A stretch of DNA of 64,000 bases from Raja brachyura (Eukaryota). Made by a program: the position numbers and the translations under genes. The first letter of the stretch is position 1; the number at the start of each line of letters is the position of its first letter. Location: assembly GCA_963514005.1 (NCBI GenBank), contig OY740807.1, positions 29,140,001-29,204,000 of the forward strand, read 5' to 3'. The notes beneath the pieces were generated by a model. That model ran no database searches. It worked only from the letters and a program-made list of their open reading frames with translations, and had not been told where the DNA came from. Shown in pieces: positions 10,520 through 32,228 of this stretch.

Positions 10520-10735
10520 TCTGAAAGAAACAAATGCATTTAGTACATGAGTCGGGCTGACAGTTTGGAAAATGGAGCTGAAAATAAAGGGAATTTAGCT
10601 GATTTGGGAATTAAGTAAACTTCAGACTATTTTAGACTCTACAGTTGCGGTTATGCATCCTACGCTACCGCTGCAACCAATTCCAAGTGAAAATTGACAA
10701 GTTCTTCAAGTTCTCAGCACAATTGGTTGCTGGCA

Positions 10736-10998
10736 CCCTGATTTTCAGTGTTGATATATGAAGGGCCTGACGTTTTTCAGAGAGTGATCTGGACATCCCC
10801 CAGACTGGGAGACAGACTGTCACTCACCTCAGGCTTTCAGAATCTCTCTGAACATGTTTCAGAAGCTCAGCCTTTTAAATAGACTAGCCCCTCCTTCAAT
10901 TTGCATAGCAGGTCCCTTTCTGGCTTGTCACTTCACGCAGTGAATTATATGGGTCCATACAATGCCAGGCACTGAACAGTATTAATCACTCTCTGTCA
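10736..10998 (-). promoter_or_regulatory. Gene A promoter, short non-coding exon 1 and start of intron 1
   Basis: On the - strand: octamer ATGCAAAT (10899-10906), TATTTAAAA (10873-10881), donor gag|gtgagt at 10828/10827. About 92% identical, inverted, to 31968-32228. Confidence 0.75.
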
Positions 10999-12269
10999 AC
11001 CTGCCTTAGACTGATCGTCCTTCTAATTCAAACCCCAGATTCTTTTATGACAAGAAATTTGTTTTGCGAGGAATCTTTTATAAGCAAAATGGTACATTTT
11101 GGACTGCTAACTAGCACCTTGGTAGTTCTTGCAGGAGGACTTGGATTCTTGGATGTTTTTTGTGAATTGGCTCATCTTTGACAAGGGAATTGGTGGTTGT
11201 GGAGTGTAGTGGAGTTATTACATAGCTGCTCATAAATTGGATGATGCAAGTATGTAGTTTGCTTGAAAATAATTAGATGGATTGGATCTCTGAATATGGA
11301 ACTGAAGTGAGTGCTGAAGTTAAAGACATTGTTATAATTTGCTCATCGTGTATGGATTTGTTGCACAAATTGTTTAACTTTAATCATAGTATAATAAAAT
11401 GCATCATAACAAGAACAATCTGCAATGCATAATTAGTTAGTACTTAAGCTTTTCTTAACACAAACTACTGAATCTAATCTCACACTCCTGATTAATCCTC
11501 ACTACATGATAAAACTTTCACCCAACTAAATATTAGGACTTCCAAAGCCATTGAGCACAGTCTTGCCATGTTCCATTCCTAGTAATCTCTATCTATCCCC
11601 CTGGCGTTTGTCTGACGCTGAACCAAATCATTCAGAACCTGTGTCTTAAGGTTGCTCTAAAATGCGCTGGCAACCAGATTATATGCCTTCATCAAGATTG
11701 CCAATTTCCTCCAGAACCTGACACCACTCTTGCCTCAATTCATCTGATGCTGATTCCTCCGATATTATGTTGGCCCATTGGGTTTGTCCATTGCTCTGCA
11801 CCACATTTGGTTGCCCACTTCCATGACCTTCCTCACACCAAACCACCAAATTCCTACAGCACTTTTTCTTTTTGTCCCACGCCAACCTGTTTTGCTAACA
11901 GCCCAGTTGGGCTTGCCCCCAGTTAAATAGCCCCTTGAATCTAGTATAATCTCTCTTAGTCTTAAATACTTATGTCACTTCATCCTCCTCCTTTTGTTCT
12001 AAAACTCCCAACTCTAAGATATCTGCACATGTCAAATTCTGTCCTCTTAAGCAACTCAATCTTAATCATGCCACCATTAAGGATTGTGACTTCCAATACC
12101 AGCACTGGAAAATCTAAAAGATTTTCTCTGAGTGACTTTACTTTTGTATCTATTTTTCTTCCTTTAGGATGATCCTGAAAAAAAATAATTTGTCCAGGTA
12201 TCTACTTGTATTGAGTACATGGTGTGTAAGTAATTCTGTTCTCTGATGTTCTTTCAACTCTTCTTGACT

Positions 12270-14270
12270 CTAGAACTGTATAGCACAGGAACAGTCCCAT
12301 TGTCCCACCATGTGTCCCTGACCATTAAGTTGTTCTAAAAAATCCCATCTACCTTTATTTGGTCCATGGTTCTTCCATTCCTTGCCAGTTTATGTCCATC
12401 TAAATGCCTCTTAGCCATGGGCATCCAATCTGCTTCCACCACCTACCCTACAGCGTATTTCGGGTACCAACCATTCTCTGTGTAAAAACAACTTGTTTTT
12501 TCCCATTCCCCTTAAAGGTTTCCCCTTTCACCTTAAAGTTGCTCTCTGAATTTGATATTTCCATGCTCGGAAAAAAATCTTGACTATCTGCCCTGATTAT
12601 GCCGCTCGTAGTTTTATATATTTCTATCAGGTCATCCCTCGGTCTCTAACATTCCAGAAACAAACAATGCAAGTTCATCCAACATCTCCTTAGGCTCTAC
12701 TTTCTAATCCAATAAACATCCTGGTGAATCTCTTCTGCGCCTTTTTCAAAGCCTCCACATTCTTCCTGGAATGCGCTCGTCAGAACTGCACACAAATGTG
12801 GTCTAACTGAAGCTTTATACATCTGGAATGTGAATGATCAAGTTTTATACTCAATACACTGACTGACATGGGAAAATATGCTGCATGTCTCCTTTACTGC
12901 CCCATCTATTGTGTTGCCACTTTATGGGACTTGCATCCTGAGATCTCTCTGTCTATCAGTGCTACAAGGATCCAGCCATTTATTGTGGACTCCCCTCTTA
13001 CATTTGATCTCCCAAAATTCATCACCTTACATGCGCCCACACTAAATTCCATCTGCTATTTCCCTACCCAAATTTCCAACTGATTTATATCCTGCTGCAT
13101 CCTTTGACCACTTTCTCACTATCTGCAAATCCACACATTTTCATATCATCTGCAAATCAGATCACCTTTTTTATCAAAATCATTAATCTATATTATAAAC
13201 CGCAGAGGTCCCAGCACTGATCCTTCTGGATCACCACTAGTCACAGACATACAGTCAGAATAACAACTTTCCACTACAACCCTCTGTATTCTAAAGCCAA
13301 GCCAATTTTGTATCCAATTTACCAACTCGCCTTGGATCCCGTGTCTTCTGGACCAGACTACCATTTTTGAACTTGTCAAGGATTTTACTAAAGTCCATGT
13401 AGACAGCATTCATTGCCCTACCTTCACCAATCATCTTCAACACCTTCTCCAAAAAAATCAATCAAATTTGTGAGACAGGACTTTCCACACACTGCTGACG
13501 TTCCCTCTAATTCCATACTTTAACAAAAGCGATAAAATCCTGTAATCCAATAATTTCCCCCCCATAACCCTTGGGTGGCATGGTGGTGCAATGGTAGAGT
13601 TGCTGCCTTACAGCACTTACAGCGCCAGAGACCCAGGTTCAATCCTGACTATGGGCACTGTCTGTACAGAGTTTGTACGTTTCCGCGTGACCCCGTGGGT
13701 TTTCTCCAAGACCTTTGGTTTCCTCCCATACTCCAAAGACGTACAGATTCGTAGATTAATTGGCTTGGTTATAAATATAAATTGTCCCTGGTATGTGTAG
13801 GATAGTGTTACTGTGCGGGGATAGCTGGTCGCTGCGGACTTGGTGGGCCGAAGGGCCCGTTTCCGCGCTGTATCTCTAAACTAAATAAAACACTGATATA
13901 AGGCTCTGCAATTTATAGTTTCCTGGATTATCCCTGTCGCCTTTTTTAAACAAAGGAACAACAATGGCTATTCTCCAGTCTTCAGGAACCTTGCCCATGG
14001 CTAAAGAGGATACAAAGATCTTTGTCAAAGCCCAAACAATCTCATCCTGTGCCTCCCTCAGTATCCTGGGAAATAATTAATTAGACTCTGGGGATTTATG
14101 TTTTTCAAGACACCAAACTTTCAAACTCATGCAAACTGTGTGGTGATGCAAAGTTTGCATGAATAATGATATTGTACACACCTTCTTAATAGTAATATGC
14201 CCTAGAATATCAATATTCTCCTCCCTAATCTCTCCATCATCTGTGACCCTCTCCATCGTGAATACCATCC
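12270..14270 (-). mobile_element. Old CR1 LINE interrupted by a SINE
   Basis: WIQNWL..R.QRVVV..SVTSG.P.GSVLGP in ORF 13188..13409 plus further decayed ORF2 sequence. Confidence 0.8.
13573..13890 (+). mobile_element. HE1-type tRNA-derived SINE
   Basis: A-box-like tggtgcaatggtagag, B-box-like ggttcaatcc, CR1-like 3' end gggccgaagggcc..ctaaactaaa. Confidence 0.85.
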
Positions 14271-14469
14271 ATATGAAAAAGGTTTTCTATGCTGATTGTG
14301 AGTGATATTCATACATCAACTGCCAGTCATATAACAAACTAACATGTCCCTTCCTGTACAATTTCCTCACATCATTTCTGTTTTCTAAAGTTTTCTTAAT
14401 TTTTTTGGTCCATGTTATTGAAGAAATGCAACAAATTTGCGATTTGAGTATATCACAATAAAAAAAAGT

Positions 14470-15112
14470 AGATATCGCTCAAAATTCAAACTGATGGTGG
14501 TGAAAAGATAGAATGACATTCCCAGTTCTTCCTGTGCACATTCTCAGACAACCAACTCCTTGAGGGGACTTGCGATTGAGTCCAAAGTGGGTTACAGTAT
14601 ACATAATTTGATGGTGGAAAATAGTTAGCTTTGATGAAGTGTAATTTTTTTTATTAAGAAATGTCGCTGAGTTTGAAACTCCTTTTACTGGGATTGAGGA
14701 ATACTTCCATATCATTAGGTCAGGAGAAGATCATATCGCAGCGGTCAAAGCTCATTGGAGATTGTTGTGCTTGAATATCCCAAAGCCCATGTCCTTCATC
14801 TGCACACTTGCATATACATATCCATACTTTGCCAGCCTCTGTAGGTAAGGTTGGGAAATTACGACAGACACCACCAGTGTAACAGTTGGAAGTGTTGCAT
14901 TATCGGAAGGCTGACAGCAGGCAACCTTCCTGCACATTGTCATTGCTGGTCAAGAGTTTGGTATACAGGCAATAATGATAGAACACATCTTTAAAGGTCA
15001 GATATTGCATAAAGATATACCGGGCTTCACTTTTTATGTCTTCTCCAGCATTCCACCACTAAGGAACACTAAAGGCAGCAAAATGAATGGAAAACCTAAT
15101 ATCTTCTCATCA
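14470..15112 (-). pseudogene. Possible highly decayed single-exon class A GPCR (GPR148 / fish odorant-receptor-like)
   Basis: Frameshifted fragments in plausible transmembrane order: KILGFPFILLPLVFL; DIKSEARYIFMQYLTFKDVFY; NATLPTVTLVVSVVISQPYLQR; LTIFHHQIMY..RTGNVILSFHHHQF. Many stops; recognised by eye only. Confidence 0.3.
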
Positions 15113-16709
15113 TCTGAAGATAAGGTCTACCTTTTGGGGAGAGATGCAAAGTTTGCATGAATAATGACATTGACTACAATGCACAAAGGATCAAATAACT
15201 GAGAGCGCGCAATGTTGTAATAAATGTCAAACTGTCAGCATGCACTGCTCGATGCACACGTAACTTCCACAGGGCAACATGACTTTGCTTCTAATGCACG
15301 AACTACCTCTGTGGAGGCTCGGTTGATCGTGTTTACAGGTGACGAGAAACCACGAGATTACACATTAATCCGAGCAGTGAGAAATAATCTGCTCCTGATC
15401 TAATCGATCAATCACTGCATCAGATTATGAATTCAGATGGTGAATTTGTGGGAGGAAAAGTTTGCATTTTACGCCCCACCTGTTCACTGTGTTCCCAGCC
15501 ATGGTGACCTGCAGCTGGCTATCAAGCCTTTAATCAGACAGAGATGTAGCAGATTACGTTCTGAATGCCCCAGAATTATTGTGCCGAATCTTCCATCCGC
15601 AACTGATTCTCCAGGTTCCACTGATGGGACAGTTTGTGACTTGGAGAGATATTTCTCACCAAAATAAACTCTTTGATGCCAGTGCCTTTGGCATTATGCT
15701 GTGTTTGACTCATTCAGGCAATGCTGTGAGAGTTTAGATTAAAATCTACCTGCGACATTACCTGCTGATTTATTAAATTCACAATTTTTTTAAAAACTCG
15801 GGGCAAATAAATTACCCACAGGATTCAGCCACTCTCCCAGGATGTGTAATTTGCCTTCTCTGCCACAGGAGGAGAACATGACTTACAGTCTTCTGCGGGT
15901 TTTGGAAGATTTACTTTTCTGCAGGAGTGTAGCCTTCTCTTGATTGGAGGTGATGGAGCCCACAAATTAACTTCTTGATCTTCATGATGGAGTATTTTAC
16001 CACTTTATCAAACCCTCTTTAAATAAACATTAGCTTGGCCCAGAATACTCAAAAATGCCTCAGATATTAATGTTCTTACTAAGGAGACTGGGAAAGAGAC
16101 TCACTGCAACATTTATTAGGACATGGTAGTATTTATCAACGCTTTTAGAATAAGACCTTCTACTTTCGAGAAAGCCGCTGGATGGTCAAGGCATTTCTGC
16201 CTCTGCTCACGCACCTACTTTTCCTTGGCTTACTGGATTCCCAATGATTTACCAGAACGGAGCACAGACTCACCTCTGCCTGGAAGTTTGTCTTACTCAG
16301 CCATCCCATCTCATAAGTCAGTTTTTGTGCTTTGTTAAATGCATTTGAAGATGTTAGGCTAGATTGGGAACCAACCACAATTTCTCGTAAAGGAATAGCA
16401 GAAAATGTGGCATCACTTTTCACCACAAAGCTGGGAGGGACTTATGGTGATAAGTCTCAATTTTTAAAGCCATGGAATCATAGCTACAGCAAGCATTTTG
16501 GCCCAACGTATCCACACCAATCATCAAGCACCTATTCTAACTCTAATCCAAGCACATTTTATTCTCCCCCAGATTCGAGTCACCTATATACTAGGAGTGC
16601 TTTACAGTGGCCAAGTAATCTATTAACCTACAGAATCCTGGGCTGTGAGAGGAAACCAGATTACCTGGAGGAAATGCAATGACGGGGAAAATGTGCAAAC
16701 TCTACCCCC

Positions 16710-16897
16710 TTTAACCAGGGCTAGTTTTGGCTTTTTTGAAATAATCGCAAGAACTTTGAAGAAGCCTCGACGAAGCGGGAACCACTTTCCACCATTAGGG
16801 AGAGTGACCGGAACCTCCAGGAACCTCACGGAAACCTTGGGTGGGGCGCAAGGTCTCCAGAGGTTTCTGTTCAGGTTTTCGAAGTGGGACAGGGGCT
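16710..16897. mobile_element. Truncated Harbinger-type MITE end next to a - strand SINE fragment (about 16470-16700)
   Basis: Ends gaagtgggacaggggct|taa, matching the TIRs at 19291-19653 and 21108-21649. Confidence 0.6.
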
Positions 16898-17275
16898 TAA
16901 CTCTCTTTTAAATTCATACTGTGAGCTCTATCTAACTCTCTTTCAAATTCATCCTGTAAATTGGCCTCTACTGCCTTGTGACAAAGTAGGGCAGTGATTG
17001 ACCGGATTACAGTTATTGCCTTCTGCAACAATGTTAACAAAAGAAAGAAAGACGGTATTTTGTTTCAGCTTTCTTCCATTGTCTCAACTTCTCTGAAAGC
17101 ATTTTTAGCTAATCAGATTGAGGGACCAGAGGACTGAAACACTGGAAGACAGAAATTAAAAATCAGGAACACAATGAACTGTAGTGTTTTACTCAGGATT
17201 CGTTCTGAACCCATACTTCTATTTGTTTTCTCGTGAATTGGTTATGAAGGGACATTGTAATTTGTCTGTTCACTG

Positions 17276-17582
17276 TTTAGTTTAGTTTAGTTTAGAGATG
17301 CAGCTCAGAAACAGGCCATTTGGCCCACCAAGTCTGTGTCGGCCAGCGATCTCCGCACATTTATACTAACCTACACACACTTTAACCAAGCCAATCAACC
17401 AACAAACCTGTACCTCTTTGGAGTGTGGGAGGAAACCAAACATTTCGGAGCAAACCCATGCAGTCACGGGGAGAACATACAAATTCCATACTGACAGCAC
17501 CCGTAGTCAGGATCAAACACGGGTCTCTGGTACTGCAAGCACTGTAAGGAAGCAACTCTACCAGTGCACCGCCATGCCACCC
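17276..17582 (-). mobile_element. HE1-type SINE
   Basis: Reverse complement of the 13573 family with (tttag)n tail. Confidence 0.85.
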
Positions 17583-19290
17583 GACAAATACGAGTGAAAA
17601 TGTTACGGATTAAGTCCTATCTGCTGGTTGCAACAACTTCTTACTATCTCTCATGGAATTTCCAATCTAAAAAAATTAACATGTTCAAGCAGTAAAAATT
17701 GGCATCACCTTGCTATTACAGCATTTTATTCTTTGAACCCGGACAACAGTTTAGAGAGTTTCCTCCAAGTAAATTAAGTGGTAATGAGGATGAGGATCTG
17801 TGATTCATGGATAATGTAGAAAATAGTAGGAAGTGCCCTCAACCAGTGACATTGAAGCAGGAATCTGGCAATGAATTTGGAGATTAGGATCCGGAGCTCC
17901 CAAGAAATTAAGTTTTTGGAGAATAATTAAACTTGCACACAGAAGTGGGAGTGTGATCCTTGAGCCTTCAACAGTCATAATGTGGCTCCATAGTGAATTT
18001 GCCTTCCTTGCAGGTGGTGAAGGAGAGAGTTTTCACTCCATCCCTTGAAAGGGTTACGTATAAAAGAAAGGATCAGCCAGAGAGGCAGGAGATGACAGAC
18101 ACAGTGATCATGAATGGGTCAAATGGTTGATCTCTCATTATCTAGCTGTGGTGAGGAGTAGGAATTATGGATGAATGAGATCCACTGGATAAAGTACTGA
18201 GAATAGCTAAACTATTGTGCTGTTTTAGATAGGGGCTTTTAGATAGTGGAAGTGCAGGGAATTAAATGATATGGATCATGCACAGACAGATTAGATCAGT
18301 TTAACTTGGCTACATGTTCAGCACAAACACTCCAGGCCAAGGGGCCTGTTCCTGTGCTGTACTCTTCTATGTTCTATGTTAACTTACATGGGTGATGGAA
18401 GCTGAAAAGTTGAAACTTGTTGACTAGAAATCTAGACTCTTGTAAAGAACTTGTATTCAAAGAATCTTTCCCCAGAAGCATTCCAGACCTGAAATGGTAC
18501 CTGTTTCTCTTTCCACAGATGTTGCCTCGTCCAATATTTCCTGTTTACATCTGCAGTTTATTTGATCTTCAAGCATAATAGAAGGTATAGCAGCCCGTTA
18601 GAGCTGAAGGCTAATCACAGAAACTCCTTTGGACAGTAGAATTGCACATGGTTGCTTCAAAGTTCGAAGATTCAAAGTTCATGATAAGTCTGGCACAACT
18701 CCAGGTAACTTGAATTGAATCCCAATCTCTAAGGAAGGAGTGTGCTGGAGGGTTTGCCATCCTGTTGTATGCCTCTGTCTCTAAATTTAGTTCTAGAAGG
18801 TGGGGGGTCAAAATACTTGTCAGTACTGCAATGCTGTATTGCAATACATGGAGTTTTTGGGATACATTGTTCATTTGAAGCCCTGACTAATTTCCCTAGG
18901 GTGAATACAAAGGTCCCATCAGACTATTCTGAAGACAAGTTGAGTGATTATCTATCAATGAAATCAATATTCAACTTATCCTTGACATGGGAAAAGGCAT
19001 CATGTTCACTGCTGAAGATATTGGTGATGCAGCAATTAGAACTGCTGCCCCACAGCTGCAGGGACCTAGATTCAGTCTTGAAATTGCGTGCTGTCTGCAT
19101 GGAGTTTGCATAGTGCCTATGTGACCATATAGCCTTGGGTGCTCCAGTTTTCCAGGACATCCCATAACATATGCCAGAGAGTTAATTTGCTGTAGTAAGT
19201 GACCCCTTAGTGTAGGTAAGTAGCAAAGGAATTAAAGAGGAGTAGCTGAGCATGGAAAAGAGAAGGATAAGTAGGCTATAGGGAAAATAA

Positions 19291-19653
19291 AGGGCCTGTC
19301 TCACTTTCCAGAGCTGCTCACAAATTCTCCTGAGTTTTCCCCTTGATTCAAACTCGGAGAATATTCGTAACGGGTCCGTAGGAGCCCGTAGGAGTCCGTA
19401 GATATATCGTAGCGGCTCGTTATGTCAGCCGTAGGTACTCTGGGCATTAAATGTTGCAATTTTTCTCCTCCCAACTATCTTTTTACTCGTGGACATTTTT
19501 TGTCATGCTGGAAAAAAATGTCCCGACTTACCTCATGCCCCGAATACCTACGTCTGCAGTAGATACGAACCCGTTACGAACATTCTCCGAGTTTGAATCA
19601 AGGGGAAAACTCGTGAGAATTCGTGAGCAGCTCAGGAAAGTGGGACAGGCCCT
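19291..19653. mobile_element. PIF/Harbinger MITE inserted in an old SINE (about 19023-19740)
   Basis: TIRs agggcctgtctcactttcc / ggaaagtgggacaggccct, TAA TSD at 19288-19290 and 19654-19656, internal inverted arms. Confidence 0.85.
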
Positions 19654-21041
19654 TAAGAAGGGTATAATAGGATTAACGGGACCCTAGGTTGGGACCTGGC
19701 ATCGGCCTAATAGACTGAACGACCTCATCTTCTGTTGTACAGGTCACCCAAACAGCTTGCAAGGTGGAAATACTGGGATCCCACATTACAGAAAATGCCT
19801 TCAGTCCCATAGCAACCGGGCTAATCCATACCAGCCTCTCAAATGCTTGCACTTATTACACAGGCTGTATGTAAGTTGGCCATTTGTATGGTGATGAGGA
19901 TTTGTGCTATGTGAATCATAAACTGGCATGAGAGAAGGCACTTGGGTTAAAACAATAAATTATAAATTACCAAAAAAAATTAATTGAAACATTAAATATT
20001 CAAGGAATGGTGCAGAATAAAGTTTTAGTATTTAAAATGAGTGGAATTTAAGCCTGTTGAGTTAATGCCCACGTTGAATAAGATACAAGGGGCCATTGCA
20101 TTGCACACAAAGAAAAGGAAATTTTGGCAGGTACCTAATGAACAAGTTCCAAAGGACATTTGGTACTCAGAAGGGTTAATTTGCCCTGTTTCATTTCTAC
20201 AATTATGGAGTTTGGAGAAGACTGTTAATGATTTGGGAGAATTAGTCCGTAAGGACTTGCTATGTGGTGTTATCGACACGTAAAATCAGATAATTTAATC
20301 TGGCTCCTTCCTTTAATTTTATTTAGATCCTAGCAGTTACAGTATGTGTTTGCTCTGCCATTCAATAAGGTCGTGAGTGATCATGAACATTTACCACTTT
20401 CCTGGATGATTTTGATAACTTTCCTTTCTCTTAGAGTAAAAAATCTCAGCATTGAATGTATTGAGAAACCATATACTTGCAGTGCTGCTGTAGTGAACTC
20501 CAAAGATTTACAGAAAATAATGTTCTCATCTTAACCCTCAATAGGCGATCATTTAATCTGAGATTTTCCCTAATTCTAGATTCTCCTAAGCAAGCAGCAA
20601 CTTAACATCTAGGGAAAATGAACTGCTAATGCTGCTTTACCAAGGAAAGACACAAAAAGCTGGTGTAAATGAGCAGGTCAGGCAGCATCCCTGGAGAATA
20701 TGGTGTGTCAGGTCCCTTCTTCCAGGTCAGGCTTTATATTCGTCTGGGGGGTCTTCTATTAATAAATAGTAATGGGTGCATGTTTAACATCCATCCTTAA
20801 TCCCTGTCAGAATGTTGCCTCAAACCCCACATTCTTCTGAACTCTAGAAAGTGTAGGTAGGTCTTACTCGGGTTCTTCTCACAGGTCAAGTCTCTCATCC
20901 CAGGATTCGATCTAGTCAATCCACATTCACTCCAAGGCAATGATATTTTCCCTACGGAGCACAGAGAACAAAACATTAAAACTATATACCACGCTCCAAA
21001 TGCAGAATTGGAGCCTGGACAACCAACTTGAATCTGAATCT

Positions 21042-21079
21042 TGAGTCTGAAGAAGGGTCTCGACCCGAAACGTCACCCA
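21042..21079 (+). ncRNA. Minimal type-I hammerhead ribozyme-like motif of a Penelope terminal repeat
   Basis: CUGAAGA-A-GGGUC(UC)GACCC-GAAA-CGUC: core boxes, stem II and palindromic ACGU stem III typical of Penelope hammerheads; stem I is weak. Confidence 0.55.
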
Positions 21080-21107
21080 TTCCTTCTTTCCAAAGGTGCT
21101 GCTTTTA

Positions 21108-21649
21108 GGGGCTGTCCCATTTGGACGACCTAATCCACGAGTCTAGAAGACCCGAGACGAGTTAAAAAAAATGTCAAGGTCGCCAAAGTAAAAGACCTCC
21201 TATGTTTCTATGTTTCTATGACTATGTCTATGACCTCCTACGACCCCCCTCGACCTCAGTCTTTCACACCTAAGACCAGCTACAACTAGCTACGAGTGGA
21301 AATGATAACATGATAAAATGATGTCATGTTTGCATTTTTTTTCCTCGGGCCAGTTACCGACCTATGACTTCCTATGACCACCATCACGACCTACTATGAA
21401 CTACCTACGAGTAAAAAGTATCATTTTTTTCCATGCCGACCTTTTTTTTACTCGTGGACATTTTTGGACATCGTGGCAGGAGAAAACGCCGCGACCTACT
21501 TCAGGCCACGAGTACGCGGAGACCACTCACGGGCATGAGGAAGAATGACCTACGACTTCCTACGACCTCGTGGCGACCACGCTGCGAGTATGAGTCAAGG
21601 GCAAACCCGGCAGGAGTCGCCCATTAGGTCGTGAAAGTGGCACAGGGGC
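21108..21649. mobile_element. Harbinger-type MITE with (ct)acgac subterminal repeats
   Basis: Imperfect TIRs ggggctgtcccatttggacgacctaat / attaggtcgtgaaagtggcacaggggct. Confidence 0.7.
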
Positions 21650-21673
21650 TTTTGTGTCCTGGTGGAGCCCCAA

Positions 21674-22103
21674 ACATAGAAACATAGAAACATAAAAACA
21701 TAGAAAATAGGTGCAGGAGGAGGCCATTTTCCCCTTTGAGCCAGCACCGCCATTCATTATGATCATGGCTGATTATCCACAATCAGTAACCTGTGCCTGC
21801 CTTCTCCCCGTATCCCTTGATTCTACTAGCCCCCTGGAGCTCTATCTAACTGTCTTTTAAATTGATTTTGTGAATTGGCCTCTACTGACTTCTGTGGCAG
21901 AGAATTCCACAAATTCACAACTCTCTGGGCGAAAACATTTTTTCAGTTTTAAATGGGCTCCCCTTTATTCTTAGATTGTGGTCCCTAGTTCTGGTCTCCC
22001 CCAACATTAGGAACATTATTCCTGCATCTAGCTTGTCCAGTCCTTTGAAAATGTTATATGTTTCTATAAGATCCCCTCTAATCCTTCTAAATTCCAGTGA
22101 ATT
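21674..22103 (-). mobile_element. HER1/CR1 3' fragment
   Basis: (acatagaa)n tail and reverse complement of the 34340-34857 type sequence. Confidence 0.85.
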
Positions 22104-22479
22104 CCAACCTTGAGGGCACGAGAGGTAAGACGCCGGTTCGCGCTCTTACCAGCCTTTTGCTCTCATGGCCACTGTTGCCAGCTCCCTCCATCCTCCTTTC
22201 CGGTTCTCCAGTCTTCAGGAAATGAGCAGGGGCCGGCTCCGCGGCTCACACGTGGCAGTGTGGTCGGAATCTGAGCTTAAATCAGTGCGTTTGAGACTTA
22301 GAGTCCATGCACTTTCATCTTCTTGCTCTATAAATCAGTCCAAAGAGGAACAAATGGATGTGTTTTATTTATTTATGTCATTGTTATCTGTTTATTTGTG
22401 TATTTATTTATTGGGAAGTTGCTAGGCATCTTGGACACTTTGTAGTTTACCTTTGAACTTTGCAGTTCAAAGATGATTG

Positions 22480-24034
22480 CATTCAGTCTTGTGAGCAGCC
22501 TGGCAAAACATGTTGCCCCACAATTTTGCTGGCGTAAATGTAGCTGGTTATGCAAATGATCATTTTTTTTGCCTCCACCACGACTGCTGCTGCTGCACTT
22601 CTGGTACGGATCAGATTGTGGAGGACACATGCTGCGTAGACAATGGTCTCCACATTCTTGGGCTCCTGCTCCATCGTAGTCAGCATGCATCTGAATCTGT
22701 TGGCGAGGATGCCAAAGGCTTTTTCCACCACCCTCCTAGTCCTGGGCAGCCTGTAGTTGAAGATCCTCTGCTCCTTTGACATCCGCCTGTGAGGGTATGG
22801 CTTCATAATCCATGACCTGAGTGGGAAGGCGTCATCACCAACCAGTGTGTAGGGGGTGTCAGGGTTGTCTTCTCCCGGCAGAGGTTCTGGTTCAGGAAGG
22901 CCTGCTCTTCCTTCTTCCAGTGCTTGCCCAAGGGAAGTCTTTCTCTAGCTCCCACCATCTGGACCACTGCCACGTGTGCCCACATCCACAAACAGGATGT
23001 TGTAGTTTGTATCCACCACAGCTATGAGTACGATGGAATGGAAATACGATGTAGTTAAAGAACATAGAATCTCCCTTGGGTGGACACCTGATGGCCACAT
23101 GTTTGCCGTTCACTACCGCACATGTGTTCCAGATAGTATCATAGCCTTGCGCCACTCTCTTCCACTCATCTGGTGTACTAGGGCAGTTCATGACTTCATC
23201 TTCATAAGCTTTTATGATGGCCTCACAGGTCTCTTGGACAACCTTGCTGATGGTGTTGTGGGCCACAAGAAAGTTGTAGGAGAGACTCTTGTAGGAGTCT
23301 CCTGATGCCAGGTAGCGGAGGGTAATGGCTAGGCATAGGCCTGGTTCCCGTGGCTTCCTCATGGAGGTCTCCTTTTTCTCTTGGAGAGGGCCTACCTGTG
23401 TCTTCAGCTCAGGGGGGAGCCTAGTGAAGTTTCTGAAGGCAGCCTCATCTTTTTGCTGGAGCTCAGTCATCAGGTTTTCATGCTGGCCCAACCTGTGTCT
23501 CTTCACGGGCAAGGCCTTCAACCACACAGACTTCTTGGGCTTCTTTTTCACCATTCTTCTTGTCCTTCTGTCTTGCAAATGTTTAAGCAAGAGGGCTGCT
23601 GCAAGTAGCAGGGCTTCTTCTTCTTGTAATAAGAGTAATCTGATGTTGCTCCATGGTGGTCATGATGCAGAATGATTCGAATCCGCACCCTACAACCCGT
23701 TTTATAGGAAAACTGGCTGATTCCATTGTTTTAGAGGCCAAAATGATGTCACATGTCTTCAGTTGTCCTCGCTTGTCGCCGCAGCTTGTCGTAGCTTCTC
23801 GCAGGTGTAGGTGTCGGCGAAGGTTGTCACAGGTGTGGTCGTAGGTGGACGTCCTAAGTCATGACGATTGGGTCACCGGTTGTCGATAGCTTGCCGTAGC
23901 TTGACGTCGATTAGATGGTAAGTTGCTTACTTGTCATAGACATTTTCGTAGGGGGTCGAGTCGCTGGTTTTTCGGCGACCTGCTACAACAATGACAGTCG
24001 CTGGCAGTCGCCAGAAAAATCGCCTAAATGGCCC
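22480..24034 (-). mobile_element. Decayed PIF/Harbinger transposon: frameshifted transposase (about 22480-23654) and right end
   Basis: LAITLRYLASGDSY, NGKHV (first catalytic D changed to N), VGDDAF, FNYRL..RRVVEKAFGILANRFR, ACVLHN; gtcgtag subterminal repeats and degenerate TIR aaaaatcgcctaaatggccc before ttaa. Confidence 0.85.
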
Positions 24035-24039
24035 TTAAC

Positions 24040-24187
24040 TTAGCGGGACAGGCAGCATCTTTGGAAAGAACGAATGGGTGACGTTTCAGGTCTGAAGAAG
24101 GATCTCGGCCCAAAACCTTACCCTTTCCTTCTTTCCAGAGATGCTCCATGTCCCGCTCAGTTACTCCAGCATTTTGTGTTTACCTTC
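24040..24187. mobile_element. Penelope-derived inverted terminal-repeat relic
   Basis: Tail-to-tail copies around ctgaagaaggatctcggcccaaaac. Confidence 0.7.
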
Positions 24188-25917
24188 TAATCTGTTACAT
24201 CTCTGTGTGATTGAGGGCAAGATAACCATCAGGCAACCAACATGACATATTGTTGTGTAAATTGGCAGGACATACAATTCTGCCAGAAATATCTATGTAA
24301 GCTATGACTGAATGATTTATTATGAATGGGTTAGGTCACTTTGTCACTGTTTGTGTTGTTATATCTAGACTGTGGGACACAAAACATCTTGTGCTTGATT
24401 TCCACCAGCATGAACCTCATTAGCTCAGCCTTTGTAAAAAAGTTTATTGGAAAAAAAGTGAATTATTGTTGCCAGGTGCTTGCGCCATGTAGCTTACAGC
24501 ATTGGACATTGTTCGATCCAGATGTGTCGTATCACTAGAGTTGCGTGTTACATGTTTCTAGTATCATTGATTTTGCCATTCCTGTTGTATTATACCAATG
24601 GATACACTTAGATCCACTTATTTTTCACCATTGGATGCTGTTAGTGTCAAGTCTGGTAAAGCATTGGACTCTCCAATAAAAAAACATCACTGGTGCTGCC
24701 ATTTCATTGCACTATGCAACCTTGCATTGAATACTCTCACATCCATGTTTTTGCCTTCTAGATTTGTTGGTGCATTTGTTGATCTTGTAGTATTTTATAA
24801 ATGATTTTTGGCCACCTACTCTGGTCTTTGTATGTTTAAAACTGTTGGATTAAAGAAGTAATTTTAATCGCAGGCAGTAAACTGGCAAAGTGGTTTTGAT
24901 GCCCCTTGTAGAAACCAGCCATATGCAACTCAATGCACCATTAGCAAAGTTGAAATTGATCCCCTTTATATTTGGTCCCTTTACTCATTTATATCTGATC
25001 CCTTTACTCATTGCCTATGGCAATAAGACATTGACATAAGCTGCAAACCATTGCACAGCTTATGATTTGTGATTATAATTCAATGTCTGGCCTGCCTTTT
25101 CTAGATTTTTTCCACCCAATTTTGGTGGATAAAATCTTGTTAGATGTGCATAACAGTTCCACCGACACCATCAATCATAAACAACATATGATCGATTCCA
25201 AAGTAATGAATAGCTGAGGAATTAAGTCATGGAGAGAATTATTTATGCATGATATTGAATGTTGACCAATGTTTAGTCATTTGTTTAGACTTTCACACCT
25301 GCAATAATTAGTAAGCCATCGCTGACACTAGCTCAAAATTCATGGGAAGTATCCTTCAATTATTGTTCAATATCCATTTAGTAGACCGAATAGAATTGAA
25401 CTCGTGTGACTATTGAAGAACCAGATGGCCTGAGTTTATCTCTTGGATGAATGTATTATCTGGAGGATGAAATTATCAAAACCATTATTCCTCAACTTTC
25501 CAAAAATGTTGCTGTGGTTTCCACCATTATATTTGCCAAAATCTGAGTTTCCGTAATTTTATTTTGATGATTGGAAAAGTGCTGCCTGATGAACACAGGG
25601 GTGAAAGCCTGGCTCACTAAGACTGCGAGTCAACAATCCTCCAAAACCCATCACATTGATACAACATCAGGTCAAAGGTATACAAAGATTGAAGCTATTG
25701 AGCAAATCTAATGTTTCAAATCCTCCATTCCATATCCTCAAGCAGCCTTAATCATGCGCTACGGATACTTCAAATCTAACAAGGTTAATTCAATTACTTC
25801 CTTCATGAAGCTATGTGAACAAATGCAGACGTGGTAACAAATGCAGATAGGCTGCGCCAACTATAGTAACCTCCTGAACACTTTTGTCAAATCATTCTGA
25901 TGCAGTATAAGCGTAAA

Positions 25918-26050
25918 AGTCTGAAGAAGGGTCTCAACCTGAAACATCACCCATTCCTTCTCTCCAGAGTTGCTGCCTAACCCGTTGAATTACACCAGCA
26001 TTTTGTGTCTATCTTTGGTTAAAACCAGCATCTGCAGTTCCTTCCTACAC
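25918..26050 (+). mobile_element. Penelope terminal-repeat relic
   Basis: agtctgaagaagggtctcaacctgaaacatcacc...cagcatctgcagttccttcctacac. Confidence 0.75.
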
Positions 26051-26714
26051 ATTAAATCCTTACTCACTCTCTTTTGCAGCCAACTTGGCACTTTTGATAC
26101 ATTAGCCAATGTATCGTGTTTATTTCCACTTTAGTTTTCTGTCTGAAACCAATTGTCAATCCCCAACTCCGCGTGCTTGAATTTTGTTGACCAATTTCTT
26201 TAATGGGACTTTATTAAATGCTTTCCGAAAATCCCAAATCACCTCAGCCTTTGGTTCCTCAATTATTTTACTCATCAAATCCTCAAACAATTGTGGAGGA
26301 TAAAGTAAACATATTTTCCTTTCACAAGCCTATGTTGACATGGCTCAATCCAGTCTAGAGGAAGGATGAAATTCAAGCACGTGGAGTTGGGGATTGACAA
26401 TTGCAGATAGCACTGGTAGCCAGGATTTTACTCAAGTTGTTGGAGCTGTGAGCTGCAGGTCCACCAGTTACACCATTTATCACATTTCATATTGCGTTGA
26501 TGATCATTTCTGTTGACAAAAGTGCCCCGCTGCTACCTGCCTGCATTTGGCTGATATACCTCTAAACCTTATCCATATATCCAAATGCTGTTTAGATGTT
26601 GTTATTGTATCTGCCTCAACTGCAACATTCGTTCCACAGATGCACCATCCTCTGTTTGAAAAAATTGCCCCCCAGGTACCTATTAAATCTTTTCCCTCTC
26701 TCATTAAACTTATG

Positions 26715-28662
26715 AGGTGCGAGAGGGGTATAAAGAGTGTAAAAAGAATCTTAAGAAAGAAATTAGAAAAAGCTAAAAGAAGATATGAGGTTGCTTTGGC
26801 AAGAAAGGTGAAAGTAAACCCAAAGGGTTTCTACAGCTATATTAATAGCAAAAGGATAACGAGGGTTAAAATTGGACCATTAGAGAGCCAGAATGGACAG
26901 CTATCTGCAGAGCCAAAAGAGATGCGGGAGATATTGAACAATTTATTTTCTTCGGTATTCACCAAGGAGAAGGATACTGAACTCTATGAGGTAAGGGAAA
27001 AAAGTAGAGTAGCTATGGAAACTATGAGATTCAAAGAGGTGGAAATACTAACACTTTTGAAAAATATAAAAGTGGATAAGTCTCCAGGTCCTGACAGGAT
27101 CTTCCCTAGGACATTGAGGGAAGTTAGTGTAGAAATAGCAGGGGCTATGATGGAAATATTTCAAATGTCATTAGAAACGGGAATAGTGCCGGAGGATTGG
27201 CGTACTGCGCTTGTTGTTCCATTGTTTAAAAAGGTTTCAAAGAATAAACCTAGAAATTATAGATCTGTTAGTTTGACGTCAGTGGTGGGCAAATTAATGG
27301 AAAGGATACTTAGAGATAATATATATAAGCATCTGGATAAACAGGGTCTGATCAGGAACAGTCAACATGGATTTGTGCCTGGAAGGTCATGTTTGACAAA
27401 ACTTCTTGAATTTTTTGAAGAGGTTACTAGGGAAATTGATGAGGGTAAAGCAGTGGATGTTGTCTACATGGATTTCAGCAAGGCCATTGAAAAGGTTCCC
27501 CATGGAAGGTTGGTTAAGAAGGTTCAATCTTTGGGTGTTAATGGCGGAGTAGCAAGATGGATTCAACAGTGGCTGAATGGGAGATGACAGAGAGTAATGG
27601 TGGGTGGCTGTTTGTCAGGTTGGAAGCCGGTGACCAGTGGGGTGCCTCAGGAATCTGTGTTGGGTCCACTGTTGTTTGTCATGTACATCAATGATCTGGA
27701 TGATGGGGTGGAAAATTGGATAAGTAAGTATGCAGATGACACTAAGATAGGTGGTGTTGTGGATAATGAAGTCGATTTTCAAAGTCTACAGAGAGATTTG
27801 GGCTATTTGGAAGAGTGGGCTGAAAGATGGCAGATGGAGTTTAATGCTGATAAGTGTGAGGTGCTACATCTTGGCAGGACAAATCAAAATAGGACGTACA
27901 TGGTAAATGATAGGGAATTGAGGAATGCTGTGGAACAGAGGGATCTAGGAATAACTGTGCATAGTTCCCTGAAGGTGGAATCGCATGTAGATAGGGTAGT
28001 AAAGAAAGCTTTTGGTGTGCTGGCCTTTATAAATCAGAGCATTGAATATAGGAGTAGGGAAGTAATGTTAAAATTGTACAAGGCATCGGTAAGACCAATT
28101 CTGGAGTATGGTGTACAATTTTGGTCGCCTAATTATAGGAAGGATGTCAACAAAATAGAGAGAGTACAGAGGAGATTTATTAGAATGTTGCCTGTGTTCC
28201 AGCAACTAAGTTACAGAGAAAGGTTGAACAAGTTAGGTCTTTATTCTTTGGAGCGCAGAAGGTTAAGGGGGGACTTGATTAAGGGGGGACTTGATTGAGG
28301 TCTTTAAAATGATGAAAGGGATAGACAGAGTTGACGTGGATAAGCTTTTCCCATTGAGGGTAGGGAAGATTCAAACAAGAGGGCATTACATGAGAATTAA
28401 GGGACAGAAGTTTAGGGGTAACATGAGGGGGAACTTCTTTACTCAGAGAGTGGTGGCTGTGTGGAATGAGCTTCCAGCAGGAGGATCGATTTTAACATTT
28501 AAAAGTGGATAGGTATATGGACGGGAAGGGAATGGAGGGGTATGGTCTGAGTGCAGGTAGATGGGACTAGGGGAAAATAAAATGTTCGGCTCAGACTGGA
28601 AGGGCCGAGAAGGCCTGTTTCCGTGCTGTATTGTTATATGGTTATATGGTTTTATGGTTATG
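26715..28662 (+). mobile_element. Young 5'-truncated CR1 LINE (RT region) nested in an older - strand CR1 (about 26530-28770)
   Basis: ORFs 26547..27587, 27597..28298 and 28291..28512 carry KSPGPD, SQHGF, YMDFSKA, VPQESVLGP, YADD; one stop, a 16-bp tandem duplication frameshift near 28264-28295, (ttatatgg)n tail, ttatg at both junctions. Confidence 0.92.
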
Positions 28663-28916
28663 TCCTCTGATTCTGGATTCCCCTACTCTGCATAAAAGAC
28701 TCTTGGTGCATTCACCTTATCAATTCCCCATTGAGGTTTAATACATCTCTTTGAGATTACTCCTCAGCCCTGTGTCAGATAACCCATCCCCATTTTCCCT
28801 CATGTCCATTGTACCATAATCCTTTAAGATCTGATGAATTTTGCAGTCGTCATCATGAATATGAACGCAACGCAGCAGCTGCAAATCTGCTGGCATCTAC
28901 CATTGGGAATGACATA

Positions 28917-30527
28917 GAGTGGCTTGCAGAAGTTTTCATACCCCTTGAACGTTTCCACATTTTGTCACGTTACAATCACAAACGTAAACATATTTTATTG
29001 GGATTTTATGTGATAGACCAACACAAAGTGGTGCATAATTGTGAAGTGGAAGGAAAATGATACATGGTTTTCAGATTTTATTACAAATAAAAAACTGAAA
29101 AGTGTTGCGTGCAAAAGTATTCAGCCCCCCTGAGACAATACTTTGTAGAACCACCTTTCGCTGCAATTACAGCTGCAAGTCTTTTGGTGTATGTCTCTAC
29201 CAGCTTTGCACATCTAGAGACTGAACTTTTTGTCCATTCTTCTTTGCAAAATAGGTCAAGCTCAGTCAGATTGGATGGAGAGCATCTGTGAACAGCAATT
29301 TTAAAGTCTTGCCAGAGATTCTCAACTGGATTTAGCTCTGGACTTTGACTGGGCCATTCTAACACATGAATGTGCTTTGATCTAAACCATTCCATTGTAG
29401 CTCTGGCTGTATGTTTAGGGTCGTTGTCCTGCTGGAAGGTGAACCTCCGCCCCAGTCTCAAGTCTTTTGCAGACTCTAACAGGTTTTCTTCCAAGATTGC
29501 CCCGTATTTGGCTCCATCCTTCTTCCCATCAACTCTGTCCAGCTTCCCTGTCCCTGCTGAAGAAAAGCATCCCCACAGCATGATGCTGTCACCACCATGT
29601 TTCACAGTGTGGATGGTGTGTTCAGGGTGATGTGCAGTGTTAGTTTTCCGCCACTCATAGCGTTTTGCATTTAGGCCAAAAACTTCAATTTTGGTCTCAA
29701 CAGACCAGAGCACCTTCCTCCACATGTTTGCTCTGTCCCCCACATGGCTTGTGGCAAACTGCAATGAGACTTCTTATGGCTTTGTTTCAACAATGGCTTT
29801 TTTCTTGCCACTCTTCCATAAAGGCCCAATTTGTGGAGTGCGCAACTAATAGTTGTCCTGTAGACAGATTCTCCCACCTGAGCTGTGGATCTCTGCAGCT
29901 CCTCCAGAGTTACCATGAGCCTCTTGGCTGCTTCTCTGATCAATGCTCTCCTTGCCCGGCCTGTCAGTTTAGGTGGACGGCCATGTCTTGGTAGGTTTGC
30001 AGTTGTGTCATACTCTTTCCATTTTCAGATGATGGATTGAACAGTGCTCTGTGAGATGTTCAAAGCTTGGGATATTATTTTATAACTTAACCCTGCTTTA
30101 AACTTCACCACAACTTTATCACCTGTCTGGTGTGTTCCTTGGGCTTCATGATGCTGTTTGTTCACTAATGTTCTCTAACAAACCTCTGAGGCCTTCACAG
30201 AACAGCTGTATTTATACTGAGATTAGATTACACACAAGTGGACTCTATTTACTAATTACATGACTTCTGAAGACAATTAGTTGCACTGGATTGTATTTAG
30301 GGGTATCAGAGTAAAGGGGGCTGAATATTTTTGAACGCCACACTTTTCATTTTTTTATTTGTAAAAAAATTTGAAAACCATGTATCATTTTCCTTCCACT
30401 TCACAATTATGTGCCACTTTGTGTTGGTCTATCACATAAAATCCCAATAAAATACATTTACGTTTGTGGTTGTAACGTGACAAAATGTGGAAAAGTTCAG
30501 GGGTATGAAAACTTTTGCAAGCCACTG
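28917..30527 (-). mobile_element. Full-length inactive Tc1 (long IR/DR-type TIRs)
   Basis: About 210-bp TIRs (g/c)agtggcttgca.aagt flanked by TA; transposase from ATG 30149 with frameshifts, WSVETK (catalytic D to V), QQDNDPKH, SPELNPVE, lost stop after GGSTKY. Confidence 0.93.
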
Positions 30528-30590
30528 TAGATAGAACTTACCTGTATGATTCAGAAAGCAAACCCTCCCAGTGAATGTTATGGAATGTTA

Positions 30591-31363
30591 CAGCATATAA
30601 TCCTCCAACATTTTCGTCATCTCCAATGGGATCCCACTACTAGCCACATCTTCCCATCTCCACCCCTTTCTGCTTTCTGCAGAGACCATTCCCTCCGCAA
30701 CTCCCTGGTCAACCCGTCCCGTCCAACCCAAACCATCACCTCCCCAGGTACTTTCCCCTGCAACTGCAGGACATGCAATCTGTCCCTTTACCTCCCCCCT
30801 CGACTCCATCCAAGGACCCCAACAGTTTTTTAATGTGAGGCAGAGGTTCATGTGCACCTACTCCAACCTCAACCACTGTATCCGCTGTTCCAGGTGTCAA
30901 CTTCTGTACATCGACGAGACCAAGTGCAGACTCGGCAATCGTTTTGCTAAACACCTCTGCTCAGTCCGCCCTTGATCTACCTGATCTCCTGGTTGCCCAG
31001 CACTTTAACTTCTCCTCCCATTCTCAATCTGACCTTTCTGTCCTGGGCCTTCTTCATTGTCAGAGTGAGGCCCAGCGCAAATTGGAGGAACAGCACCTCA
31101 TATCTCTCTTGGGTAACTTACACTCCAGCGGCATGTACATTGACTTCTCTAACTTCAAATAACCCTTGTTTTCCTTCTCTCTCCATCCCCTCCCCTTCCC
31201 AGTTCTCCCACCAGTCTTACTGTCTCCGACTATGTTCTATCTCTGCCCCGCCCACTCACCTGACATCAGTCTGAAGAAGGGTCTCGACCCGATACATCAC
31301 CCATTCCTTCTCTGCAGAGGTGCTGCCTGTCCCCCTGAGTTACTCCACTATTTTGTGTCTACC
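30591..31363 (+). mobile_element. 5'-truncated Penelope-like element (GIY-YIG endonuclease region plus terminal repeat)
   Basis: PGTFPCNCRTC and CIRCSRCQLLYIDETKCRLGNRFAKHL; terminal repeat at 31268 has the hammerhead GAAA changed to GATA. Confidence 0.85.
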
Positions 31364-31429
31364 AGTGAACGTTTTGCCTGGTTCTCATCAATTTCCCAAT
31401 TTCATGCAACTCAATGCACAAAAAAAGGT

Positions 31430-31850
31430 ACGGGAAGGATTTGGAGGCTTTGGACAGCGTGGAATAGTGGTTTACCAGAATGATGCCTGAGTTAGAGAGT
31501 ATTAGCTGTAAGGAGAGATTGGACAAACCTGGATTATTTTCTCTGGAACGTCAAAGGCTGAAGGGAGATAAAATGACAAGACACATAGACATGGTGGACA
31601 GTCAGAACCTTTTTATACCAGGTCAAAAAAGCCTAACAAGGTATGGATTTGTCAGATGGGCAAAGTTGAAAGGAGATGTGCGTGGCAAGTTTTATGCAGA
31701 GAGAGGTCGGTGCCTAAAACATAATGCTAGGTGTGTTGGAAGCAGATACAATAATCACATTTAAGAGCCTTTTCATATAGACATATGGATATGTAGGGAA
31801 TTGAGGGATTTAAATCATGTGCAGGCAGAGGAGATTAATTTCCAGGCATA
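31430..31850 (+). mobile_element. Old CR1 3' fragment just upstream of the gene B promoter
   Basis: ERLDKPGLFSLERQRLKGD. Confidence 0.75.
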
Positions 31851-31967
31851 CATTATTATATTTATTATTAATCTCTTGACACTATTATTATTTTCGATTT
31901 GAATGATCTCCAACTGCAGTTGTTATATGGTGTTTTACTTTAGAAGTGAACAATTCTTTAAAGCGAA

Positions 31968-32228
31968 TGACAGAGAGTGATTGATTGTGGTCATTGCCTG
32001 GCATTGTGTAGACCCATATAACTCACTGCATGGTGACATGCCAGAAAGGGACCTGCTGTGCAAATTGAAGGAGGGGCTAATCTATTTAAAAGGCTGAGCT
32101 TCTGCAACATGTTCAGAGAGATTCTGAAAGCCTGAGGTGAGTGACAGTCTGTCTCCCAGTCTGGGGGATGTCCAGATCACTATCTGACAAACTTCAGGCC
32201 CTTCATTTATCGACACTAAAAATCAGGG
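31968..32228 (+). promoter_or_regulatory. Gene B promoter, short non-coding exon 1 and start of intron 1
   Basis: Octamer variant GTGCAAAT (32058-32065), TATTTAAAA (32083-32091), donor gag|gtgagt after 32136; inverted near-copy of 10736-10998. Confidence 0.75.

What the first reader, a model, noticed from the sequence alone, without database searches (positions are those of the whole stretch)
10736..32228. About 260-bp promoter/exon-1 block about 92% identical between paralogs whose C1q domains are only about 43% identical
Seen: 10736-10998 (reverse) aligns to 31968-32228 with about 21 differences, including 76 identical nt (32106-32181) of which 45 are intronic. Similarity stops abruptly on both sides, and the C1q domains match at 53/123 aa by hand count. 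Non-coding DNA being far more similar than coding DNA is the reverse of normal paralog decay. Inference: promoter-restricted gene conversion or strong selection keeps two subunits co-expressed.
Basis: partly seen in the sequence, partly recalled or inferred. Interest (0 to 1): 0.8.

Follow-up and report, generated by a model that had tools for sequence, protein, structure and literature searches.

The report
Skate collagen genes share copied promoter
Two very old sister genes for a secreted short collagen in a skate, probably egg-case proteins, keep nearly the same promoter although their coding DNA is only half identical, most likely because the front end of one gene is copied onto the other from time to time, as related genes in a chimaera and a bamboo shark also suggest.

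Summary
10736-10998(-) and 31968-32228(+) differ at 21 of 263 columns, with a 76-nt identical run. The block occurs only twice in the window. It holds the TATA-like box, a short non-coding exon 1 and 92 nt of intron 1 of two head-to-head genes, 21 kb apart, in a skate. Each gene encodes signal peptide, propeptide, Sushi domain, 38 Gly-X-Y triplets and C1q. Their coding DNA is 50% identical and near saturation at fourfold sites, and the duplication predates the shark-ray split.

Cross-species clues came from protein models. Three divergent chimaera paralogs have identical signal peptides (24/24), and two bamboo-shark paralogs match at 20/22, while their C1q domains are 41-49% identical. That points to recurrent 5'-end gene conversion in this family. 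Two shark models also keep 18-39 nt of the block, so part of it is under real constraint.

Best reading: repeated 5' conversion plus selection on an ancestral promoter (0.72). Orthologous DNA, start sites and expression were not available. Co-expression for a heterotrimer is inferred; the egg-case identity is recalled. New variant of a known process.

The parts
10736..10998 (-). Shared 5' block, copy A: proximal promoter, non-coding exon 1, first 92 nt of intron 1
31968..32228 (+). Shared 5' block, copy B (inverted relative to A, 21 kb away)
32106..32181 (+). 76-nt run identical to A 10858-10783; spans most of exon 1, the donor and 45 intronic nt
   Evidence: P=0.015 for a run this long if differences were evenly spread
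10783..10858 (-). Copy A of the identical run
32041..32058 (+). 18-nt promoter core also seen (1 forced mismatch) upstream of bamboo-shark paralog C, through a mis-predicted exon in P0278
   Evidence: the only two places in the window at <=1 mismatch are the two block copies; peptide chosen after the first alignment
10886..10925 (-). Promoter stretch of A with octamer and GC-box-like motifs; best match in the window for the N-terminal extension of white-shark A model P0010
   Evidence: motif names recalled
10874..10881 (-). TATA-like box of A
   Evidence: label is inference
32083..32090 (+). TATA-like box of B
   Evidence: label is inference
32109..32136 (+). Inferred non-coding exon 1 of B (start about 32109-32115, not measured); only match to my strong-donor pattern within 2 kb upstream of exon 2
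   Evidence: exon 2 has only one base before the ATG
10828..10855 (-). Inferred non-coding exon 1 of A (start about 10855-10849)
   Evidence: by alignment with B
10447..10520 (-). A exon 2, signal peptide
8149..8197 (-). A exon 3, propeptide
   Evidence: match to Leucoraja P0013
7050..7105 (-). A exon 4, propeptide ending in a KR site
4888..5049 (-). A exon 5, Sushi domain
   Evidence: PF00084, E 2e-8
897..1645 (-). A exon 6, 38 Gly-X-Y triplets plus C1q; protein 362 aa
32507..32580 (+). B exon 2, signal peptide
33906..33978 (+). B exon 3, propeptide
35219..35274 (+). B exon 4, propeptide ending in a KR site
35874..36032 (+). B exon 5, Sushi domain
   Evidence: PF00084, E 2e-8
36703..37454 (+). 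B exon 6, 38 Gly-X-Y triplets plus C1q; protein 370 aa
10999..31967 (.). Spacer between the divergent promoters; transposon debris where identified, no further family member by tblastn

Best explanation
The block is the ancestral proximal promoter, first exon and first donor of a chondrichthyan family of Sushi-collagen-C1q genes. After an old duplication the coding exons and most introns drifted too far apart to recombine. The 5' end stayed similar enough to pair, and has been re-copied between neighbouring paralogs by non-allelic gene conversion, here between two inverted copies 21 kb apart. Selection on promoter elements keeps a seed of identity, conversion refreshes the sequence around it, and tracts that reach diverged coding exons do not survive. 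SHOWN: the block, its place in both genes, the age of the duplication, and species-wise grouping of signal peptides in two other species. INFERRED: conversion as the cause of the skate block; the start sites; that a shared promoter equalises expression; that the chains co-assemble. RECALLED: that these are egg-case collagens of the oviducal gland.
For: (1) Block divergence is 0.077, against JC 1.58 at fourfold sites of the same gene pair (31/91 identical); 0 of 8 tested flanks of introns 2-5, the 3' UTR and three upstream spans beat shuffles. (2) The tract runs 92 nt into the intron with 6 differences, none in the first 45 nt, then ends abruptly. (3) A and B clades each hold sharks and batoids (bootstrap 98 and 97; 100 and 100). 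(4) Three Callorhinchus milii paralogs (both halves of fused model P0132, plus P0164) have 24/24 identical signal peptides, with identity stopping at residue 24, where the skate exon 2 ends; their C1q domains are 46-49% identical, and they match skate A or B signal peptides at only 12-13/24. (5) Chiloscyllium plagiosum B and C (fused model P0278) share 20/22 signal-peptide residues with C1q at 41%; C is closer to its own species' B (91%) than to any other B examined (73-86%). (6) In a 39-nt stretch, white-shark A needs at least 8 edits to reach skate A, whereas skate A and B differ at 2 of 40. (7) All 16 chains that were complete enough to count in the A and B clades have 38 triplets; C and one chimaera gene have 37, which fits co-assembly.
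Against: No orthologous DNA was seen; all cross-species data come from computer-predicted protein models. Part of the block is clearly constrained: 18 nt survive with 1 forced mismatch in a shark paralog C, about as well as A and B match each other there (5 differences in 57 columns). Identity peaks where constraint should peak (1/62 from TATA to donor+8, against 20/201 elsewhere, p=0.03). Signal peptides are slow in this family even among orthologues (skate A vs catshark A 18/24). Point 6 is weak: p=0.011 at 8% and 0.059 at 11% divergence; the white-shark model has an aberrant C-terminus, so the gene may be decaying; and at the one A/B difference inside it the shark sides with A. With the epaulette-shark pedigree rate (7e-10 per generation, abstract) and assumed generations of 5-20 years, 7.7% would take 274-1096 Myr, so no absolute date is given. 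A crude charge-pair tally did not favour heterotrimers over homotrimers. Orthology of the chimaera genes is unresolved (bootstrap 42-75).
Confidence: 0.72

Rival explanations
1. Constraint only: the 263 nt are a paralogous conserved non-coding element held at 92% since the duplication by purifying selection on promoter, start site and first donor.
For: Pieces of the block persist in shark A and shark C models. Identity is highest from TATA to donor. The 3' end of intron 1 is also conserved between A and B (p=0.003) and in shark C (9 of 2068 windows score as high). Sharks evolve slowly (PMC10587355 abstract).
Against: It needs about 95% suppression of substitutions over an unbroken tract with 92 intronic nt, far above the best coding window (52.9%). 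No unusual RNA fold (z -1.1, -1.6 and +0.5) and no Rfam family. It cannot explain signal peptides identical within the chimaera but only half identical to those of skates.
Confidence: 0.17
2. One-off promoter replacement: a single old conversion or inversion-linked exchange in a skate ancestor, followed by ordinary decay, with no recurrence and no selection for shared regulation.
For: Substitution spectrum (9 transitions, 10 transversions) and divergence resemble those of repeat pairs in the window. The abrupt 3' edge fits one tract.
Against: Differences are uneven (76-nt run, P=0.015; weak 5' tail). The same kind of 5' homogenisation appears in two other lineages with other gene pairs.
Confidence: 0.07
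3. The block is a low-copy transposon or LTR fragment, or an assembly artefact, unrelated to the genes' history.
For: The window is rich in transposons. The rest of the genome could not be searched.
Against: Two copies only in 64 kb, each at the same place relative to exon 2. No target-site duplication (flanks). It holds the only strong-donor match upstream of each exon 2 and homologous pieces lie in shark paralog models. 19 scattered substitutions and a gap do not fit a collapsed or chimeric assembly.
Confidence: 0.04

Closest known systems
HBB-to-HBD promoter conversion in mammals (PMC4041002; abstract and 12 passages read)
   Same: Short conversion tracts (about 130 bp upstream) give one paralog the other's proximal promoter and change its expression; recurrent across lineages.
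   Different: The duplication dates only to stem placentals, the genes are tandem, and tracts usually include 5' coding sequence. Here the coding DNA is 50% identical and the skate tract stops 215-278 nt before the first coding exon.
Mouse V1R promoter homogenisation (PMC1955453; 12 passages read)
   Same: Unbroken non-coding islands around the start site, more alike between paralogs than between orthologues; conversion proposed as a way to equalise promoters.
   Different: Paralogs within subfamilies at 15-25% non-coding divergence; promoter conservation only reaches coding levels. Here it far exceeds them, between genes near saturation at fourfold sites.
SIGLEC11/SIGLEC16 (PMC5701461; abstract and 7 passages read)
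   Same: Head-to-head pair about 9 kb apart, repeated 5' conversion in each lineage, including upstream DNA.
   Different: Tract of about 2 kb covering coding exons on a background of 88-93% identity; explained by shared ligand binding.
Silkmoth chorion A/B pairs (PMC4639761; 11 passages read)
   Same: Eggshell structural genes, divergently transcribed pairs, gene conversion in the cluster.
   Different: A and B share one bidirectional promoter region. Here each gene has its own copy, 21 kb apart.
Elasmobranch egg-case hybrid collagens (Goh and colleagues, Biomacromolecules 2022; recalled, not read)
   Same: Recalled architecture: collagen midblock flanked by domains known from innate immunity and network-forming collagens, with homologues in egg-case-producing cartilaginous fishes.
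   Different: Sequences could not be compared; I recall nothing in that work on promoters or conversion, but could not check.

Membership tests
Non-allelic gene conversion tract (concerted evolution) | Contiguous tract far more alike than the rest of the paralog pair | tested here: met
   242/263 against 139/263 in the best coding window, p=5e-25
Non-allelic gene conversion tract (concerted evolution) | Tract covers sites expected to be free of constraint | tested here: inconclusive
   92 intronic nt with 6 differences; their neutrality is assumed, not shown
Non-allelic gene conversion tract (concerted evolution) | Within the tract paralogs group by species; outside it by paralog (the skate block itself) | tested here: inconclusive
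   Coding tree groups by paralog. For the block only 39 nt of one shark model: at least 8 edits against 2
Non-allelic gene conversion tract (concerted evolution) | Same grouping for the signal-peptide exon in other family members | tested here: met
   Callorhinchus 24/24 in 3 of 3 pairs; Chiloscyllium B/C 20/22; not met for A/B in skates (12/24) or bamboo shark; protein level only
Non-allelic gene conversion tract (concerted evolution) | Donor direction, and variants shared between copies in a population | not testable with these tools
   no orthologous DNA or population data
Paralogous conserved non-coding element | Deep conservation between species | tested here: inconclusive
   met for an 18-39-nt core; unknown for the other ~200 nt
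Transposon or LTR fragment | Dispersed copies and target-site duplication | tested here: not met
   two copies in the window, no duplication in the flanks; rest of genome not searched
Structured non-coding RNA | Rfam match or unusually stable fold | tested here: not met
   0 matches at gathering score in the window; 4 weak matches (E 0.8-4.5) in 31700-32600; fold z-scores not significant
Bidirectional promoter pair (chorion type) | One shared promoter region between close divergent start sites | tested here: not met
   two separate copies 21 kb apart
Egg-case hybrid collagens (definition recalled) | Short collagen flanked by Sushi and C1q domains, in cartilaginous fishes | tested here: met
   full-architecture hits that I named were all chondrichthyan
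Egg-case hybrid collagens (definition recalled) | Made in the oviducal gland and present in the egg case; identity to the published proteins | not testable with these tools
   paper not held; searches gave no paper with these sequences

The most novel reading that the evidence does not exclude
For several hundred million years, cartilaginous fishes have kept the chains of a heterotrimeric egg-case collagen under matched control by repeatedly copying a 5' cassette between neighbouring paralogs whose coding DNA can no longer recombine. The gene pair and the tract end differ by lineage: promoter and exon 1 for A/B in this skate, the signal-peptide exon for B/C in bamboo shark and for all three genes in the chimaera. 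Conversion would act as a selected device for dosage matching, an alternative to a shared bidirectional promoter.
Probability: 0.35. Interest if true: 0.78.

Novelty: new variant of a known kind. Interest (0 to 1): 0.6.

Why it matters
Conversion is normally expected to stop once paralogs diverge, and to homogenise coding DNA more than flanks (general knowledge). Here a 260-bp non-coding island stays at 92% inside a pair whose coding DNA is 50% identical, and related genes show the same 5' bias in two other lineages. If block trees confirm it, this is a compact natural test of whether selection for matched subunit dosage can keep a conversion tract alive. It also marks a short candidate promoter for a highly specialised secretory tissue, testable in reporter assays.

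Tried and rejected
RNA gene or structure: no Rfam family, folds no better than shuffles. Repeat or LTR: no third copy, no target-site duplication. Homology beyond the block: none upstream over 100, 300 or 1000 nt by local alignment, none in mid intron 1, in 8 other intron flanks or in the 3' UTR. Paralog C in the window: not found by tblastn. Promoter traces in odd N-terminal parts of gene models: 2 of 6 proteins tested matched the block (P0010, P0278); P0017, P0009, P0137 and P0276 did not. Charge-pair tally for heterotrimer preference: no clear signal. Absolute dating: dropped, because the result spans 38-1096 Myr depending on the assumed rate. A promoter-centred recombination hotspot as driver: the one paper checked has no mention of sharks; left open. 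No structure or complex was predicted, since C1q trimers would tend to pass by likeness to solved structures (one search lists 23 such relatives). The papers on shark egg-case proteins could not be read; their text and supplements bear directly on gene identity.
Full report
Observation. A self-blastn of the window finds 10736-10998 against 32228-31968 at 92.0% over 263 columns. Global alignment gives 19 substitutions and one 2-nt gap, K2P 0.077, and a 76-nt identical run, B 32106-32181. A run that long has P=0.015 if the 20 events were evenly spread. By region, differences are 14/117 upstream of the TATA-like box, 1/54 from there to the donor, 0/45 and then 6/47 in the intron. No third copy exists in the window. 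The 3' edge is abrupt (p=0.25 for extension); the 5' edge has a weak 43-nt tail (p=0.01); the end of intron 1 is homologous beyond its last 15 nt (p=0.003). Upstream spans of 100, 300 and 1000 nt, mid intron 1, eight other intron flanks and the 3' UTR do not beat shuffles.

The genes. A (minus strand) and B (plus strand) point away from each other. Each has a non-coding exon 1 inside the block and five coding exons, giving 362 and 370 aa: signal peptide, two propeptide exons ending in a KR site, Sushi (PF00084), 38 Gly-X-Y triplets and C1q. Exon 2 has one base before the ATG, so an upstream exon is needed, and the block holds the only match to my strong-donor pattern within 2 kb in both genes. 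The start site is inferred from TATA spacing, not measured. A and B are 43.9% identical as proteins (156/355) and 50.3% as coding DNA (536/1065); fourfold sites are 31/91 identical, JC 1.58; the best 263-nt coding window is 52.9%. Third codon positions of exon 2 are more alike (16/24) than those of the Sushi, collagen and C1q parts (93/290; p=0.001).

Relatives. C1q searches gave 6 hits among 34 candidates for B and 4 among 40 for A, all chondrichthyan where named. The closest named are Leucoraja (B 87.6%, A 85.6%; adjacent accessions on a contig of the same length) and Amblyraja (87.5%), then Rhinoraja (81.9%). The window is therefore a skate near those genera. In C1q trees the A and B clades each contain sharks and batoids (98/97; 100/100; Logan proteins, two duplicate catshark models and, Hemitrygon and one Mobula were left out). 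The duplication thus predates the shark-ray split, recalled as roughly 270-300 Myr. The profile search (best 150 listed) added a third elasmobranch paralog C and three Callorhinchus milii genes. C is not in the window. I recall that Goh and colleagues (Biomacromolecules 2022) described shark egg-case collagens of this kind. I could not read it: two look-ups failed, I saw only the citation of their 2021 paper, and searches returned no paper on these proteins. That egg capsules are mainly collagen from the oviducal gland is stated in passages of PMC10230700.

Cross-species evidence for conversion. No tool held orthologous DNA, but gene models gave indirect tests. In C. milii one fused model carries the signal peptide twice, so at least two genomic copies exist, and a third model carries it too. 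All three are 24/24 identical, identity stops at residue 24, and C1q and collagen parts are 45-49% identical. The same peptide is only 12-13/24 identical to skate A or B. In Chiloscyllium plagiosum, tandem B and C share 20/22 residues, the first 19 without a break, with C1q at 41%. C is closer to its own B (91%) than to B of other species (73-86%). A/B signal peptides are not homogenised in skates (12/24) or bamboo shark. The family therefore shows 5' homogenisation in three lineages, between different partners and with different ends. Synonymous sites could not be seen, and the chimaera genes' orthology is unresolved.

Cross-species evidence for constraint. I back-translated odd N-terminal or linker parts of six models and scored them against the block; two matched, at the same place. 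The 53-aa extension of white-shark A (P0010) scores best in the whole window on block A: 0 of 3136 overlapping windows and 2 of 3000 peptide shuffles reach it at the first setting, 0-12 and 2-9 over four settings. The linker in P0278, upstream of C, is matched or beaten by 24 of 2068 windows (11 for its first 33 residues); six of its residues, picked afterwards, fit only the two block copies at <=1 mismatch. So the block is the old family promoter and an 18-39-nt core is conserved. The white-shark stretch needs at least 8 edits in 39 nt against 2 in 40 between skate A and B, which leans to conversion but weakly (p=0.011-0.059). The bamboo-shark stretch is about as close to A as B is, which leans to constraint for the upstream half. 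These models are computer predictions; that the peptides come from promoter DNA is inference.

Mechanism. Selection keeps promoter elements alike, which preserves a seed for pairing between neighbouring paralogs. Repair between the two inverted copies then copies 100-300 nt around it, including intron sequence. Tracts cannot extend into DNA that is 50% diverged. A shared promoter would match timing and level of chains that probably trimerise together: triplet number is 38 in all complete A and B chains counted and 37-38 in C and the chimaera genes. A charge-pair tally gave no support for heterotrimers, and expression was not testable. Crossing over between the copies would also invert the spacer; this is a prediction only. 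No date is offered: assumed rates give 38-1096 Myr.

What is known. Promoter conversion is described for HBB/HBD, proposed for mouse V1R promoters, and 5' conversion recurs in the head-to-head SIGLEC11/16 pair. Chorion pairs are co-regulated through a shared promoter instead. For each I read the abstract or matching passages, not the whole text. In those cases the paralogs are still similar. I found no report of this locus or of a promoter-only tract between paralogs this far apart in searches (listings and abstract starts), in a library that lacks most subscription papers.

Verdict. Real feature; conversion plus constraint 0.72, constraint alone 0.17, one-off event 0.07, repeat or artefact 0.04. 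New variant of a known kind, interest 0.6.

Noticed in passing
P0132, P0164 (Callorhinchus milii models): Three family members on one scaffold with identical 24-aa signal peptides and 46-49% identical C1q domains; P0164 has three Sushi domains by eye and tblastn.
   Followed up: yes
P0278, P0193 (Chiloscyllium plagiosum, Hemiscyllium): A third paralog C with two Sushi domains and 37 triplets lies after B in bamboo sharks; it is absent from this window.
   Followed up: partly
P0003, P0004, P0014, P0015; P0009, P0010: Live-bearing rays (Hypanus, Hemitrygon, Mobula) gave only B hits, and the A models of whale shark and white shark have aberrant C-termini. Possible decay where egg cases are reduced; search sensitivity is limited and the life histories are recalled.
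   Followed up: no
window 10899-10906 (-) and 32058-32065 (+): A has a perfect octamer motif just upstream of a GC-box-like element; B differs at its first base. The white-shark trace sides with A.
   Followed up: partly
window 10447-10585 (-) and 32440-32580 (+): End of intron 1 and exon 2 stay about 65-70% alike between A and B, more than any other coding part: an older conversion layer or a constrained splice region.
   Followed up: partly
window 900-1643 (-): The collagen part of A is strongly basic (net +13) while that of B is near neutral (+2); the same contrast holds in Leucoraja (+11, 0).
   Followed up: partly
window 2097-3174 and 27681-28656: A young CR1-like LINE copy in intron 5 of A is 88-95% identical to a copy in the spacer and has an internal inversion; family label recalled, RVT_1 match.
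   Followed up: no
window 28915-30529: Tc1-like element (DDE_3) with about 215-bp inverted terminal repeats at 93% identity.
   Followed up: no
window 22373-23675: Harbinger-like transposase remains (DDE_Tnp_4).
   Followed up: no
window 44000-51000 and 55900-60600: Two related DIRS-like retrotransposons with reverse transcriptase and tyrosine recombinase frames, about 70% identical; the first is GC- and CpG-rich.
   Followed up: no
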